From: the human T2T-CHM13v2.0 reference genome, Homo sapiens
DNA length: 64,000 nucleotides
Direction: 5' to 3' (one strand)
Assembly: GCF_009914755.1 (NCBI RefSeq)
Contig: NC_060927.1
This document shows positions 24,387-63,805 of the stretch, piece after piece. The translations under genes and the position numbers were made by a program. How positions within the stretch are numbered: position 1 is the stretch's first letter; each line of letters opens with the position of its first letter. The notes below the pieces were generated by a model that ran no database searches, was not told the DNA's origin, and worked only from the letters and a program-made list of their open reading frames with translations.

Positions 24387-29076
<4,690 letters not shown>

Positions 29077-35409: not shown

Positions 35410-35843
35410 TTCTTTTTTTCAAATTTTATTTTATTTTAAGTTCCGGGATACATGTGCAGGATGTGCAGGTTTGTTACATAGGTAAATGCATGCCACGGTG
35501 GTTTGCCGCACCTATCAACCCATCACCTAGGTATTAAGCCCTGCATGCATTAGCTATTTATCCTGATGCTCTTCCTCCCACATTTCTTTTTTTTTGTTTT
35601 TAGCATTTATTTTAGGTTTGGGGGTACATGTGAAGGTTTGTTACATAGGTAAACACAAGTCGCACAGGTTTGTTGTACATATTATTTCATCACCCAGGTA
35701 TTAAGCCTAGTACCCAATAGTTATCTTTTCTGTTCCTCTCTCTTCCCCCACCACCCCGCAACTCAAGTAGACCCAGTGTCTGTTGTTTCCCTCTGTGTTC
35801 GTAAGTTCTTATCATTTAGCTCCCGCTTATAAGTGAGAGCAAG
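35410..35843 (-). mobile_element. Two adjacent short L1PA 3' ends (~35410-35580 and ~35585-35843)
   Basis: Each begins with T-tract...gtacatgtg...ggtttgttacataggtaaa; outer TSD gcatttctttctt at 35402 and 35844. Confidence 0.88.
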
Positions 35844-37339
35844 GCATTTCTTTCTTAATCTCAGCTTAAGTTCGGCATTTTAACAATGATTGCATCAGAA
35901 ACAGAGACCTCTGTAGCAGATTGGTGGGTAGTTTTCTTTTTTTTTAACCTTCCTCATTGGTGTTTGTTTACTTTTTAACTGTCTGACAAATGTGAAAAGT
36001 ACCCAATACAGGGTGACAGCATGCCCAGCAGTAGAGACACTTGGGTGTTAAATACCAGTGGCGGTGGGGACACGCCCCAACAGACCCCAACAGCTTCTCA
36101 CCAAAGAAAGTTCCTAAAGGAATGGAAGAGGTTCTAGAATTCTGGAGGTGGGGTGTACAGGGAGGGACCATGTGCACTGTTACTGTTGAGTGGACAGATG
36201 TGCAGAAGGGAGGGGTGTCGGCGGGTGTCCCTGCCCCAGCAAGGGTAGAGGGCTGGTTAGCAGTTGATCCAGGAGTAGATGTTAGCATCCCCACCATGCA
36301 GCTACAGGATGTGGTCCTCAAGTCCTGTCTGCTCATGTGATGGAAATAAGGAGAGTGGTGGAGGCGGGGGCCTTCCTTTTTTAATTCAGGTGAGATTGGT
36401 ATTCTCCCAGCTGGGGTTCCTGTGGGCTGTAAGGGTGTTTGGCTGGGCAGGCAAAGCCGGAAATGGGTGGTATGGAGGAAGAAACAGAATAGCTGAAGAT
36501 GGGATGAAGGAGGAACTGCCTGAACTGATCAGTGAGCTCCACAGCCCCCTCTGTGTGTGTGTGTGTGTGTTTGAGAGAGTAAGAGAGAGCTCATGCTCAT
36601 GAGTGTGTGAGTTAGGGGAAAGGTGGAGGTGGGCATTGTTGACACAGGCCTTGCAGGACGAAGCCTTCCTTTGGTGGCTTTAATTAAGCAGGGCCCCAGA
36701 CACTGCCTGGGCTGGAGAAAATGACTTTCTTCTCCAGAACTTCAAAGCAATTATTTTTGCTAATTTTTTCCTTCCTCCCTGTTAGGTGAGTGGTAGTTTT
36801 AGAAATCACAGGACATCTGTTGAAATTATTGAATGAGTGAACGCGAGGTGAGGCTGGAGGGAATCAGGGGCTGACCCGAGGGAGGGCGGGGAGGCAGGTG
36901 CAGACTGCTCAGTGAGTGTGGTGGGATCCCGGTCTTGGCTGGCCCTGTAGGAGCCCAGCCAGGGAAGGCAGGAAGAGGTGGCCTAGGTTAGCTTTGCCTG
37001 GGGATTCAAAGGGGCCAGGCGAGAGGCTCATGCTCTTTCTCCTTCCCTTTCCCTGCCATGCTCATCTTCTGAGGGCTGACGCTGAATCCTTTTCCTGTGT
37101 CCGTCAGGGATTCCTGCATAACATAGACTCACAGATACTTTTTTACAGCTATAAGAGGACGTATTTATAAGAAAGGAAATTGAGGCAGCTTTATTCAACA
37201 AATATTGATTGAGACCTCCTGTGCAGAGCACAGCAGCCCTGTGTTTCTGCCTTCCAGCCCGCTGCTGTGGCTCCCCATGCCTTGTTGTGAAGGAAAACCT
37301 ACAGTGTGGGGTTGGAAAACAGCCAGATTTGTTTTCATA

Positions 37340-37960
37340 TTTTGCATTCTTACTATAAATCATCACTCAAAATTGACACAAGTAATACATGAATACATTG
37401 TTTCAAATAATTAAAACAATACAGATAAAGTAACAAACCCCTTTACCTACCCAACTCCTTCTAATTACAATGATCAGTTCCGTGTGTCCCTTCCGAATTG
37501 TTTTTCACAGCGTGTGTGTACGTATGTATATATCACCTGTGCATTTTGAAACATAAATACAGTTTGAGTATTTTAAATTTCGTGCAAGTGGGAACATGCA
37601 TTCTATGGCTTCCTTTTTCCCACTCAATAGACCTTACAGACCTTTCCATATCTGTATGCAGAAATCTAACAACTTCATAGTTGGTGTAAAATATTCCATG
37701 TATGAATGTACCACAGTTTATTTGTTTTCTTTGTGATGAACATTTAGGGTAATTCCAAAAGTTTTACTGTTTCAAATCATGCTGCATTGAATATCCTTTT
37801 GTATGCTTCTTTGTGCATGCAAGAAAACGTTTGTCTGGGATGACAACTCAGAAGTAAACTCTCCGGGTTGGAGGGTATGTGCGTTTTTAATATCCATGTT
37901 TATTGCCACATCATTCTTCACTAAGCCTGTACTCTTTTACCTCACACCACATCTCACTGC
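37340..37960 (-). mobile_element. Old L1ME-like 3' fragment
   Basis: aatattccatgtatgaatgtaccacagtttattt...gatgaacatttagg...gctgcattgaatatcctt. Confidence 0.65.
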
Positions 37961-41339: not shown

Positions 41340-41525
41340 CTCCTCTAATTCCCATTTAATCTTTACCATAAACCCACAAGGGAGATACTGTTAAAAAAAT
41401 CCTCATTTTACAGGTGAGGAAACAAGGCTAGAAATGGTTATATTGCTTGCACGAGGCCGTGCTCCTGGTAATTGGCAGGGCCAGGATTCACACCCGGACT
41501 TCTGACTCAAGCGCCCACGCTCAAG
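41340..41525 (-). mobile_element. MIR
   Basis: cctcattttacaggtgaggaaacaaggct...ggcagggccaggattcacacc. Confidence 0.78.
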
Positions 41526-53029: not shown

Positions 53030-53520
53030 TGTGTTTTAGAGCTCTGGTCCCAGGTAGTGAGCTCAAACCCAGCACAGACTAGATTAAGCCAAAGAGGAAT
53101 TTATTGGCTCACATTGCTGGCCAGTCCAGGGATAAACTGGAGTCAGCTCAGGCGCTCAAATGATGTCACCAGGATCTGGTTTCTCTCTCTCCAGCCTGGC
53201 TCCACTTCCTGTATGTTGATTCCATTCTCAAGAATTCTCAGACACGACCTCCCCTTGTAATTGCAGGATGGCTGCCAACAGTTTCTAGGCCTACGCCTTT
53301 CCACCTTCCAGCAAAAGAGAGTGTGAGAGTCTTTGTCCCAGTCCTTCCAGATGGAGTCTTGTTTCTTCCCATTGTCTCAGATTGGGTCACGCGCACATCC
53401 GGAACCAGTTGCAAGGCCAGGGACGTGTGCAGCACTGCTGACGTGGGGCCAGGTCATGTGCGTCACCCCTCGACCTGGGGAGGAGCCAACTCTACCCTAA
53501 GTTCCTGGGCTAAGAATGGA
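53030..53520. mobile_element. Ancient ERVL solo LTR (LTR33-like)
   Basis: ttaagccaaagaggaatttattggctcaca...ctcaaatgatgtcaccagga...gatggctgcc...gattgggtcac. Confidence 0.6.
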
Positions 53521-61300: not shown

Positions 61301-63805
61301 ATGGGGAGCAGCATTCCCATCTGTAGGTTGTGTTCTTGAGTGGGAAGGCCTCCTTGGATACCTCTCGACAGTAATTCCAGGTACTTGAGCTCACAAAGAA
61401 AGTGTCTGGGGCCCTCAGCCCTTTGGTGTGGCTCCCAGGGACGCCTGAGTTATTTCCAGAAGTGGCGTGGTGGGTAGAGTGTGAGGGCAGGCCTCGCCTC
61501 CCTGCCCCTCTCCCCTGTGTGGCTTTTCCTTTCTGTAATTCAACTGATTGCTTTTCCTTCCAAATTGCTGGCTTAAGCTTTATCTTATCTAATTTTATCT
61601 CCTCCAGCCTTGTACGTCCAGAGCATCATTAGGGCCTGTGCCCATTCTGTCCCTCCCACTTCTCTTGGTCTCCCTCCACGTCCTGAGGGGATAGAAAGAC
61701 GGAGTCTGCATAACCTCCGCATCTTCCTGCCTGGGAGGGCGGCTAGGGTGGTGCCTGCAGCCTCTGGAACCTCTCCATTCTGTGTGCCCCTCAACCTCAT
61801 GGACATACTGGCGTTTCAGGACCTGGCCCTGCTTTCTCTGTCCCCGTCTCTCTCTGCCCACTGGTTTCTGTGACCCACGCCCTTCCCACCCCATTCTGCC
61901 CCTTTTCCTCACTTGCTTTTCTTACCTTCTGTCACATTCACATGCTCACTATTTCTTTTTACTCCAAGCATCTGTTCCTCTAAATCATGAACTGTAGTTG
62001 GCATAATTAAATATGTAATGTGTTTATTTTAATATCAATATGTCTTTTCATACACATATTAGTAAGAGACTTGGCTGTCAGCGCCGGGCCAGATCACCAT
62101 TTGCAGATGTCCACTCACGCCAGCTCCCCCACGGAACGTTTCTTATGCACCTCATCAGTTCTCTTTCTCCTTGTCTCTCTTTCTGTCTCTGTGTCTCTTT
62201 GTTCTGTGTACATCTCTCTGTATGTCCCTGGCTTCCTCTCTAACACAAATTGCTCCAATAGGCCGGCACCTTTTCCTCTCCGTAAACCCCAGTTTGTAGG
62301 TACACACAGGCACCCAGGCAAGGGTAGAGAAACCAAAGAGCGCTTGTTCACACTTGCTCACACAAGGACCAGCAGAGACCTAGAGCTGCATGCCACGTCT
62401 TTATTATCCTTGCTGCTAGCTCCTCTGGTACAGCAGCACTGTGACAGTTTGGAATTTGAGCCTGGGCACTCTCCCCTGAGTGCATCGGTGACGTAAAGGC
62501 AGGCAGGCAGGAGCAATCACAGCCTCCCGTCGCCTGTGTGTCCCAAGTGAGCCCCCTCCCCAAAGGGATGTAGGGAAGCCAGTCCATCTGCAAGGTATCT
62601 GGAGTGGAGTGACAGGAAGCAGAGGATCCAGTATTATTGGAATAGATTACATGGTATGTGCTTGTCACTTCCGTTTAAAGGTAAATACAAATCTGTCTTT
62701 GGCTTAGAATTCTAGCCTCCTGACCTGGGGGGTGAATATTGACTGGCAGGCTTTACCTCCCATGTAGAAAAGAGTTGCGTGCCAGGGTTATAAATTAGAG
62801 CTCTGCATTGGATGGATCTTCTTAATGTTTTCTGTGGAGTGGAATTAGAACATGTTGTTTCTTTTGAGGTTGCAAAAAGCAAACAAGGATCCCTTTCCTC
62901 CCAGACTAGTGGGAAGTAGACTAATTACTTGAAATCCTGTTTTATCAGCCATAAAACTGAGATGAAAGCTGGGGCAGTTATGAAGATCCTGATATATCCT
63001 AGACCACAAATTTCTATTCCTTTTCTGGAAGAGAAAAACTGCATTTTAGGTTTAGATAATTTGGTCAAATTTTTTAGGCTATCAAATGCAAAGATTAAGT
63101 TTCTAGAGTCTTGAATTTTAGCACAGAGATAGCATCACTTAACCTTCCCGAGTGAAAATTCCTGCCTTCTAGGTGGTGGGGAAGATCAAACGAGCTGTGG
63201 ATGCCAGCATACTTAATATGTGTTCAGTAGATATTAGTGACAGATTCAGTGGATATGACGGCTGAAGGCCTGGGTGGCTCTTCTGGGCTTGTTGGTTGGT
63301 TTCATTATAATGTATATGGTTGGACCTAAGATAACCCATGTTTGTGCTTCTGTGGACACTGGTGCTTTCAGGGTCTTAACTATATTGTTTTCATGGAAAC
63401 TTTGAAAGGACTCATGGCTCCAAAAGGGGCTGAAAAGTTTTGAATTTCCTTTTTTCTTTCTTTGCAAAAGATTTTACAGCTTAAGTCATGTAATTAATAA
63501 CAGGGGAGGTTAAGAGTCAAAGATTTTTCTCTTACCCTGGTCATTTTCGAAGCTGCACTTGGCATGGGTTGAAGCAAATTTGTGTCTTCTTGACCATTTA
63601 CTTTTTTTTTTAACTGAGAAAATAGATTCTATCTCTAATGAAGTAATTGTAAACAGCCTTGTTAACATATGGTACTGATTTTTTCACAGAAGCATTGTTG
63701 AAATGCATGGGAACTACCAGGTTAAAAGACATAAAAATAGACAATCTATATAGTCCAGATGGTATCTCCAAACTAGGGGATCCAAGTGGCATGAGAAACT
63801 GTCTA

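What the first reader, a model, noticed from the sequence alone, without database searches (positions are those of the whole stretch)
36756..36853. Textbook recursive-splicing site with a PTC-containing RS-exon in long intron 3
Seen: branch-point-like TGCTAAT (36758-36764), pyrimidine tract TTTTTTCCTTCCTCCCTGT, then TAG|GTGAGT (36785/36786). Splicing exon 3 to this AG regenerates a consensus donor (TTG|GTGAGT). A second strong donor GAG|GTGAGG at 36847/36848 defines a 62-nt exon that, in the exon-3 frame, reads VSGSFRNHRTSVEIIE-stop (TGA 36834-36836). Known: vertebrate recursive sites in long introns of neuronal genes have this AG|GT plus RS-exon design, often with a PTC. It lies in sequence I do not recognise as a repeat. 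Function is inferred; such motifs also arise by chance.
Basis: partly seen in the sequence, partly recalled or inferred. Interest (0 to 1): 0.7.

Follow-up and report, generated by a model that had tools for sequence, protein, structure and literature searches.

The report
Predicted, unconfirmed recursive splice site, CACNA1D
A rare and conserved stretch in the longest intron of the calcium-channel gene CACNA1D looks just like a recursive splice site followed by a small stop-containing exon, but it was already listed as a prediction in 2018 and no published RNA data set shows it in use.

Summary
The motif is rare. Of 1,279 AGGT sites on both strands of the 149,048-nt intron 3, it alone has at least 16 of 18 pyrimidines upstream, and it alone combines a good tract with GTRAGT. 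A second top-0.4% donor lies 62 nt downstream, followed by G-runs. A generalised form of the motif occurs only 14 times in the genome. One of those is very probably the validated CADM2 recursive site, which has the same layout.

The site is not new. Zhang et al. 2018, Table S1, lists it as a "putative" recursive site on motif and conservation alone (3' site score 11.44, phastCons 0.965). It is absent from every read-supported list I could check. Those include a 900-sample human brain study that did call two other CACNA1D sites.

My reading: a splice-competent, conserved cryptic recursive/poison exon that is used rarely or only in particular cell types. The main rival is an unused motif inside a conserved non-coding element. 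Use is not shown. Interest is low to moderate.

The parts
28884..28989 (+). CACNA1D exon 3, the upstream partner. It ends ...AACTTG in phase 0. Its native donor is TTG|GTAAGT at 28989/28990.
   Evidence: 483 nt of CDS, 161 codons; hub annotation. U1 duplex -11.0 kcal/mol.
36758..36764 (+). Branch-point-like TGCTAAT. CTAAT fits yUnAy. The candidate branch A is 36763, 22 nt before the G of the AG.
   Evidence: It is the only yUnAy in -50..-16. The consensus itself is recalled knowledge.
36764..36782 (+). Polypyrimidine tract TTTTTTCCTTCCTCCCTGT, with 17 uninterrupted pyrimidines and no AG before the acceptor.
   Evidence: 17 of 18 pyrimidines; the best of 1,279 AGGT sites in the intron, both strands. 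Zhang S1 MaxEnt 3' site score 11.44.
36783..36785 (+). Acceptor TAG; the 3' splice site lies at 36785|36786.
   Evidence: The same base as hg19 chr3:53543540 in Zhang S1 (a constant +3 offset for three sites).
36786..36791 (+). GTGAGT. After ligation to exon 3 it regenerates the donor TTG|GTGAGT (the RS-5'ss).
   Evidence: U1 duplex -10.3 kcal/mol, top 0.37% of 8,855 intronic GT. phastCons 0.965 over AGGT.
36786..36847 (+). 62-nt candidate RS-exon or poison exon. It is AT-rich (GC 0.33), non-coding (stops in all three frames), and shifts the frame by +2.
36834..36836 (+). In-frame TGA, the premature stop if the exon is retained.
36848..36853 (+). RS-exon donor GAG|GTGAGG.
   Evidence: -10.2 kcal/mol, top 0.43% of intronic GT, and the only donor at or below -8.5 within 260 nt; 2.9% chance of such a donor at 30-150 nt.
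36853..36952 (+). G-run-rich, GC-rich (0.66) stretch after the second donor. It has six runs of at least 3 G. Such runs are known intronic splicing enhancers (recalled).
   Evidence: top 0.6% of 100-nt windows in the intron.

Best explanation
This is a splice-competent, conserved cryptic exon of the recursive (RS-exon) design in the 149-kb intron 3 of CACNA1D, 7.8 kb (5%) into the intron.

Inferred mechanism:
1. U2AF/U2 bind the branch point, tract and AG, and U1 binds the donor at 36848, helped by the G-runs. Together they define the 62-nt exon.
2. The exon is joined to exon 3, which regenerates TTG|GTGAGT.
3. Either that regenerated donor is used, so the exon is lost without trace (recursive splicing), or the equally strong downstream donor is used. 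In the second case the exon stays, brings a TGA into frame, and the mRNA goes to nonsense-mediated decay.

The two donors are matched, and in mammals the exon junction complex represses regenerated donors. I therefore expect it to act at least as often as a poison exon as a traceless ratchet.

Its flux is low or restricted to particular cell types. It is not a major route of intron 3 removal in adult human forebrain.

What is shown: the sequence design, its rarity, its conservation (a published value), and its absence from the call sets. What is inferred: any use at all, and the outcome of the donor competition.
For: - Exact motifs at the stated places.
- It is the best composite site of 1,279 AGGT in the intron. 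Expected 0 to 0.03 per strand by simulation.
- The regenerated and downstream donors are both in the top 0.4% of 8,855 intronic GT.
- A second donor at 62 nt is expected at 2.9% of positions, and the G-run density after it is in the top 0.6%.
- Zhang 2018 S1 gives 3' site score 11.44 and phastCons 0.965 for this base. That score lies within the range of their sawtooth sites, 5.1 to 14.1 (part 1 of 2).
- Only 14 genome matches to the generalised motif. 3 of those 14 have an exon-like donor 20-100 nt downstream: this site, chr3:120.06 Mb, and chr3:85,303,944. The last is very probably the CADM2 sawtooth site, with a 73-nt exon full of stops.
- Zhang et al. report junction reads in ENCODE data for 60% of their putative sites (passage). 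They also report that 68% of RS exons bring a PTC.
- The competition and EJC rules come from Blazquez 2018 passages.
Against: No read-based support was found.
- CACNA1D is absent from Zhang S2 (342 sites with at least 3 junction reads), S3 (sawtooth) and S4 (lariats).
- It is absent from the Hoppe 2023 supplements (4 files), the PMC13105047 supplement and the mouse brain supplements (8 files).
- Bass & Salzberg 2026 analysed 900 brain total-RNA samples, about 102 billion reads. They list only GRCh38 53726038 and 53673713 for CACNA1D. No number starting 53507 to 53512 occurs anywhere in their file, including the S3 collation of Hoppe 100, Zhang 342, Sibley 434 and Wan 1,022.
- So nascent CACNA1D RNA was sampled and this site was still not called.
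- A first-step product here should last as long as transcription of the remaining 141 kb takes (my inference). Even modest use should therefore have been visible.
- Conservation alone is weak evidence. Margasyuk 2024 state that cryptic exons make up about 0.1% of conserved intronic sequence (passage). 8 other AGGT sites in this same intron also pass phastCons 0.5.
- The RS-exon has lower GC than its downstream flank (0.33 against 0.66).
Confidence: 0.42

Rival explanations
1. This is an unused pseudo-splice site. The motifs sit by chance inside a conserved non-coding element, such as an enhancer in the 1.1-kb GC-rich block at 36000-37100. The element is conserved for reasons unrelated to splicing, and the site is ignored or actively repressed.
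For: - Absent from all read-supported lists.
- 36,870 putative sites were listed against 342 with reads in Zhang 2018.
- 9 putative sites lie in this one intron, so conserved blocks are common here.
- Only about 0.1% of conserved intronic sequence is cryptic exon.
- The site lies in a GC-rich, G-rich block, where GGTGAGG-like words are easier to get.
- RefSeq lists several enhancers in the window (hub table).
Against: - Chance has to supply several things together: a 17 of 18 tract, an AG-free zone, yUnAy at -23, YAG|GTRAGT, and a top-0.4% donor at 62 nt.
- The same strict design marks the probable CADM2 recursive site.
- The site is not inside any RefSeq functional element of the hub table.
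- A nearby site of similar design at 36389 is not in Zhang S1. If its 3' score is at least 5 (not computed), conservation is local to this site.
Confidence: 0.35
2. This is a major, near-constitutive recursive ratchet used for most CACNA1D transcripts. The published pipelines missed it because of their filters: a SPLAM score below 0.5, an exon annotated at this base in GENCODE or CHESS, or low expression in the cell lines used.
For: - Signal strength is in the range of sawtooth sites.
- Bass & Salzberg remove loci that coincide with an annotated intron-exon junction, and they require SPLAM at least 0.5. I could not check either for this site.
- Zhang's cells (PA1, H9, forebrain progenitors) may express little CACNA1D (not checked).
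Against: - Two independent human-brain analyses do not list it: Sibley's 434 sites as collated by Bass & Salzberg, and Bass & Salzberg's own.
- RefSeq has no exon there (hub table), and UCSC Known Genes 2013 had none, since the site passed Zhang's step 1.
- A cut at 5% of the intron shortens it little.
- The regenerated donor has no advantage over the downstream donor.
Confidence: 0.07
3. The element works through U1 binding without splicing. Two strong U1 sites 62 nt apart could protect the long intron from premature cleavage and polyadenylation (telescripting). Alternatively it could act as a decoy exon that stalls intron removal.
For: - Two top-0.4% U1-complementary sites. It is one of only two such pairs within 30-150 nt in the intron.
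- ATTAAA at 37410, about 560 nt downstream.
- The telescripting and decoy-exon concepts are recalled or seen only in the search listing (PMC7373989 abstract).
Against: - This does not explain the excellent branch point, tract and AG.
- There is no data on polyadenylation or intron retention here.
- ATTAAA and AATAAA words are common in AT-rich introns.
Confidence: 0.06

Closest known systems
CADM2 recursive splice site (Sibley 2015 type; Zhang 2018 S3 sawtooth site at hg19 chr3:85288106)
   Same: The probable CHM13 counterpart at chr3:85,303,944 (+) has:
- CTAAC at -35;
- an 18 of 18 pyrimidine tract;
- TAG|GTGAGT;
- a strong donor 73 nt downstream (TGG|GTAAGT, -11.9 kcal/mol);
- stops in all three frames.

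Both sites belong to the 14 genome matches of the strict pattern. Both lie in the longest intron of a long neuronal gene.
   Different: - CADM2 shows a sawtooth pattern in H9 and forebrain cells. CACNA1D has no read support.
- 3' site score 14.09 against 11.44, and phastCons 1 against 0.965.
- CADM2 lies 279 kb into a 767-842 kb intron. This site lies 7.8 kb into a 149 kb intron.
- The identity of the CHM13 locus with the hg19 site rests on chromosome, strand, a 15.8 kb coordinate difference between assemblies, and its being the only 18 of 18 site among 239 AGGT in 60 kb. It does not rest on a liftover.
Putative RS sites of Zhang et al. 2018 (S1 Table, 36,870 sites)
   Same: This exact base is one of them. 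It meets their criteria: AGGT, an intron of at least 5 kb, more than 2 kb from annotated splice sites, 3' score at least 5, and phastCons at least 0.5.
   Different: That list is motif and conservation only. The RS-exon, the PTC and the donor competition described here are not in it. The site did not reach their candidate tier (at least 3 junction reads).
Conserved poison (NMD) cassette exons of ion-channel genes, such as SCN1A exon 20N
   Same: A short, conserved, stop-bearing exon deep in an intron of a voltage-gated channel gene. Inclusion would send the mRNA to NMD (the 20N example appears in a search-listing abstract, PMC11981616).
   Different: 20N has measured inclusion and disease variants. 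This exon has no expression evidence. As far as I recall, 20N does not begin with a consensus donor.
Drosophila ratchet points / RS-exons (Ubx type)
   Same: A juxtaposed acceptor and donor with a cryptic downstream donor within about 100 nt (Blazquez passage).
   Different: In flies recursion is efficient and frequent (197 sites against about 10 in humans). In mammals the EJC represses the regenerated donor.

Membership tests
Vertebrate recursive splice site with RS-exon | AG|GT juxtaposition with a strong 3' splice site (branch point, pyrimidine tract, AG-free zone) | tested here: met
   The published MaxEnt score of 11.44 was not recomputed here.
Vertebrate recursive splice site with RS-exon | Ligation to the preceding exon regenerates a strong 5' splice site | tested here: met
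   TTG|GTGAGT has a U1 duplex of -10.3 kcal/mol, top 0.37% of 8,855 intronic GT. This is in silico only, and no MaxEnt 5' score was available.
Vertebrate recursive splice site with RS-exon | A downstream 5' splice site that defines a short RS-exon | tested here: met
   GAG|GTGAGG at +62 nt, -10.2 kcal/mol. In silico only.
Vertebrate recursive splice site with RS-exon | Lies in a long intron of a long gene | tested here: met
   Intron 3 is 149,048 nt in this assembly and 149,058 nt in hg19.
Vertebrate recursive splice site with RS-exon | Evolutionary conservation of the AGGT | tested here: met
   phastCons 100-way of 0.965 in Zhang S1. I had no alignments, so conservation of the second donor and of the tract is unknown.
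Vertebrate recursive splice site with RS-exon | Junction reads joining the upstream exon to the site (the first-step product) | tested here: not met
   Absent from Zhang S2 and from Bass & Salzberg S1, S2 and S3. Only published, thresholded call sets were examined, not raw reads.
Vertebrate recursive splice site with RS-exon | Sawtooth intronic coverage, or lariats from the site | tested here: not met
   No CACNA1D in Zhang S3 or S4 or in the Hoppe 2023 supplements. The expressing tissues were not specifically covered.
Poison (NMD-coupled) cassette exon | Flanking splice sites and a premature stop more than 50 nt before the last exon junction | tested here: met
   TGA at 36834-36836, with 45 further exons downstream per the hub table.
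Poison (NMD-coupled) cassette exon | Inclusion isoform detected and stabilised when NMD is blocked | not testable with these tools
   No RNA-seq access. RefSeq lists no such exon (hub table). GENCODE and CHESS were not available. The Margasyuk 2024 supplements were not seen.

The most novel reading that the evidence does not exclude
The 62-nt exon is a conserved, regulated dosage switch for Cav1.3. In particular cell types or stages (hair cells, sino-atrial node, adrenal glomerulosa, beta cells, developing neurons) the exon is defined and joined to exon 3. The balance between the regenerated donor (productive) and the downstream donor (PTC, decay) then sets CACNA1D output. Variants or antisense oligonucleotides at 36786 or 36848 would change channel dosage.
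Probability: 0.12. Interest if true: 0.6.

Novelty: already known. Interest (0 to 1): 0.3.

Why it matters
If the site is used, it would add CACNA1D (Cav1.3) to the small set of human genes with a recursive or poison exon. Cav1.3 is involved in hearing, cardiac pacemaking, aldosterone secretion and neurodevelopmental disease. Such an exon would also offer a handle for antisense control of channel dosage.

As it stands, the site shows a general problem. Sequence design and conservation alone yield tens of thousands of putative recursive sites, and only about 1% gain read support. One useful by-product: perfect sites of this design are very rare in the genome (14 for the strict pattern, 150 for a looser one), and one of the 14 is very probably the validated CADM2 site.

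Tried and rejected
- **RNA structure.** The tract can pair with the downstream G-rich stretch in the minimum-energy fold of 36740-36905. The fold is no more stable than shuffles (z = 0.37; 130 of 200 shuffles fold at least as well). Dropped.
- **Known RNA family.** An Rfam scan of 35800-37800 gave 4 weak hits (E 0.096 to 0.84), all below gathering score, and none overlaps the site.
- **Repeat or paralogous copy.** The 301-nt region has one match in its own genome, itself. That tool skips very common words.
- **Coding exon.** Stops in all three frames.
- **PTC as evidence.** Weak, because 62 nt shifts the frame anyway.
- **Literature.** Four searches pairing CACNA1D or Cav1.3 with recursive splicing, poison, cryptic or pseudo-exon, novel exon, long-read or NMD found nothing about this site. 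The only paper holding both 'recursive splicing' and 'CACNA1D' mentions them in unrelated places. The review PMC9980663 deals with CACNA1C intron 3.
- **Sibley 2015.** PMC4471124 is not held. I know its list only through the collation by Bass & Salzberg.
- **Cross-species alignment, MaxEnt 5' scores, SpliceAI and any RNA-seq.** Not available with these tools.
- **Not seen.** Supplements of PMC11632617 (conserved cryptic poison exons), files 14-15 of Zhang 2018, and part 2 of its file 12. These may bear on the claim. One search did search all of file 12 for the gene name.

Full report
**Observation.**
- TGCTAAT lies at 36758-36764.
- The tract TTTTTTCCTTCCTCCCTGT lies at 36764-36782.
- TAG|GTGAGT lies at 36785/36786, and GAG|GTGAGG at 36847/36848.
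- Exon 3 ends AACTTG|GTAAGT in phase 0, after 483 nt of coding sequence.
- The 62-nt interval therefore reads VSGSFRNHRTSVEIIE and then TGA at 36834-36836.
- The candidate branch A (36763) is the only yUnAy in -50..-16, and no AG lies between it and the acceptor.

**Is it more than chance?** I fetched the rest of the intron from the window's own genome. Exon 4 starts at window coordinate 178038, so intron 3 is 149,048 nt.
- The intron holds 666 AGGT on the sense strand and 613 on the antisense strand. The site is the only one of these 1,279 with at least 16 of 18 pyrimidines at -21..-4 (it has 17). It is also the only one that combines GTRAGT with at least 13 of 18.
- Markov simulations of the intron (60 each at orders 1, 3 and 5) gave 0 to 0.03 sites of this quality per strand. 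The product of empirical frequencies gives 0.01.
- By U1 duplex energy, the regenerated donor TTG|GTGAGT scores -10.3 kcal/mol and the RS-exon donor GAG|GTGAGG scores -10.2. Both are in the top 0.4% of 8,855 intronic GT. The native exon 3 donor scores -11.0.
- Only 2.9% of intron positions have so strong a donor 30-150 nt downstream. The 100 nt after the second donor hold six G-runs, which puts them in the top 0.6% of windows.
- Genome-wide, the generalised motif (17 Y, N, YY, AG|GTRAGT) has 14 matches, against 51 for its mirror-image control. A looser motif, which this site does not fit because of the G at -5, has 150 against 228. Both counts are lower bounds by the tool's own statement.
- I defined the strict pattern from the site itself, so the significance is inflated. 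A scan of a whole genome will also turn up the best chance cases.
- The PTC adds little. 62 nt shifts the frame, and all three frames carry stops.

**Already in print as a prediction.** Zhang et al. 2018 (PMC6110456; passages, supplements) list 36,870 "putative" recursive sites in Table S1. Their criteria are AGGT, an intron of at least 5 kb, MaxEnt 3' score at least 5, and phastCons at least 0.5.
- For CACNA1D intron chr3:53535747-53684805 (hg19, 149,058 nt) the first of nine entries is 53543540. It lies 7,793 nt from the 5' site, with score 11.44 and phastCons 0.965.
- In this assembly the site lies 7,796 nt from exon 3. The next two listed sites map with the same +3 offset, so it is the same base.

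**No evidence of use.**
- searched files 1-12 of that paper. CACNA1D occurs only in S1. It is not in S2 (342 sites with at least 3 junction reads in PA1, H9 or forebrain cells) and not in S3 (sawtooth). S4 (lariats) has none either. Files 14-15 were not searched.
- The Hoppe 2023 supplements (4 files), the PMC13105047 supplement (1 file) and the mouse-brain supplements (8 files) hold no CACNA1D.
- Bass & Salzberg 2026 (preprint PMC13622621; abstract, sections 6, 11 and 19) aligned about 102 billion reads from 900 human cortex and hippocampus total-RNA samples to exon|AGGT targets. Tables S1 and S2 list only GRCh38 chr3:53726038 (324 target reads) and 53673713 for CACNA1D.
- The expected GRCh38 position of this site is about 53,509,513. 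I recalled the hg19-to-GRCh38 shift of 34,027 and checked it against data: 53673713 + 34027 = 53707740, the base after Zhang's intron end 53707739.
- No number beginning 53507 to 53512 occurs anywhere in their file. That includes Table S3, which collates Hoppe (100), Zhang (342), Sibley (434) and Wan (1,022 with AGGT).
- Caveats. Their pipeline drops sites with SPLAM below 0.5 and sites that coincide with an annotated exon boundary, and I could not check either for this site. One CACNA1D row shows 16 target reads, below the stated 40-read threshold, which I cannot explain. I saw call sets, not reads.
- My inference, using a recalled elongation rate of a few kb per minute: a first-step product here would persist while the remaining 141 kb is transcribed. 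Even a few percent use should then rival the 324 reads seen for a site in a 2.9-kb intron of the same gene. Heavy use in adult forebrain is therefore unlikely.

**What it works like.** The papers describe the mechanism as follows.
- An RS-exon is first defined and spliced to the preceding exon, which creates an RS-5'ss.
- Inclusion or loss of the RS-exon depends on competition between that site and the RS-exon's own donor.
- Efficient recursion needs the RS-5'ss to win, and the mammalian EJC represses RS-5'ss (Blazquez 2018 passages).
- In Zhang's set, 67% of regenerated donors are stronger than the RS-exon donor, and 68% of RS exons bring a PTC.

Here the two donors are matched and G-runs follow the second. 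If the exon is ever joined to exon 3, I expect retention (PTC, decay) at least as often as traceless removal.

The closest relative by design is one of the other 13 strict-pattern sites, chr3:85,303,944 (+).
- It has CTAAC at -35, an 18 of 18 tract, TAG|GTGAGT, a donor 73 nt on, and stops in all frames.
- It is very probably the CADM2 sawtooth site of Zhang S3 (hg19 85288106, score 14.09). It is the only 18 of 18 site among 239 AGGT in the surrounding 60 kb.
- Its downstream donor is also very strong (-11.9). Matched donors therefore do not exclude recursion.

**Other readings tested.** I found no significant RNA structure (z = 0.37), no Rfam family, no second copy in the genome and no coding potential. 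The site lies in a 1.1-kb GC-rich, CpG-poor block (36000-37100). Conservation could therefore belong to a regulatory element. Margasyuk 2024 note that cryptic exons account for only about 0.1% of conserved intronic sequence.

| Reading | Probability |
|---|---|
| Splice-competent cryptic RS/poison exon of low or restricted use | 0.42 |
| Unused motif in a conserved element | 0.35 |
| Major ratchet missed by filters | 0.07 |
| U1-binding or decoy role | 0.06 |

I do not file it as a proven recursive site, because the defining read evidence was looked for and not found. As a prediction it is already published. Interest is 0.3.

Noticed in passing
window 36389/36390: A second site of recursive design lies 396 nt upstream: CCTTCCTTTTTTAATTCAG|GTGAGA (14 of 18 pyrimidines). 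It is not in Zhang S1, so it presumably fails their conservation or score filter.
   Followed up: partly
window 41413/41414; also 42533, 58654, 62680: Four further Zhang S1 'putative' recursive sites of intron 3 fall in the window. The one at 41413 reads TTTTACAG|GTGAGG (3' score 8.6, phastCons 0.84). The one at 62680 has phastCons 0.998.
   Followed up: partly
L016 (G000:C3:120059300-120059900, minus strand): Another strict-pattern site: TTTTTCCTCTTTTTTCTTCTAG|GTAAGT, with a donor ATG|GTAAGT 58 nt downstream and stops in all frames. It has the same RS-exon design. The gene is unknown to me.
   Followed up: no
L020 (G000:C11:123223100-123223700, minus strand): Here the strict pattern is not an acceptor. 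The 'tract' is coding sequence, ATG TCC CTC CTC CTT CTC CTC TTG CTA G|GTGAGT, which looks like a poly-leucine signal peptide at the end of a first exon. From memory it resembles CLMP.
   Followed up: no
whole genome G000: Perfect acceptor-plus-donor composites are rarer than their mirror-image controls: 14 against 51, and 150 against 228. This could reflect selection against strong cryptic sites or plain word bias. The counts are lower bounds.
   Followed up: no
window coordinates 166227 and 166279 (outside the window, in L011): The only other pair of top-0.4% U1-complementary GT sites within 30-150 nt of each other in intron 3.
   Followed up: no
window 36000-37100: A 1.1-kb block of GC 0.5-0.6 with many G-runs and a low CpG ratio, set in a 30-40% GC intron. 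The site lies inside it. It could be a regulatory element.
   Followed up: partly
outside the window: GRCh38 chr3:53673713 and 53726038: Bass & Salzberg 2026 call two read-supported recursive sites elsewhere in CACNA1D. The first coincides with the start of an annotated exon (the base after Zhang's intron end, hg19 53707739). From memory this is one of the mutually exclusive exon 8 pair. It is listed with only 16 target reads, although the stated threshold is 40.
   Followed up: partly
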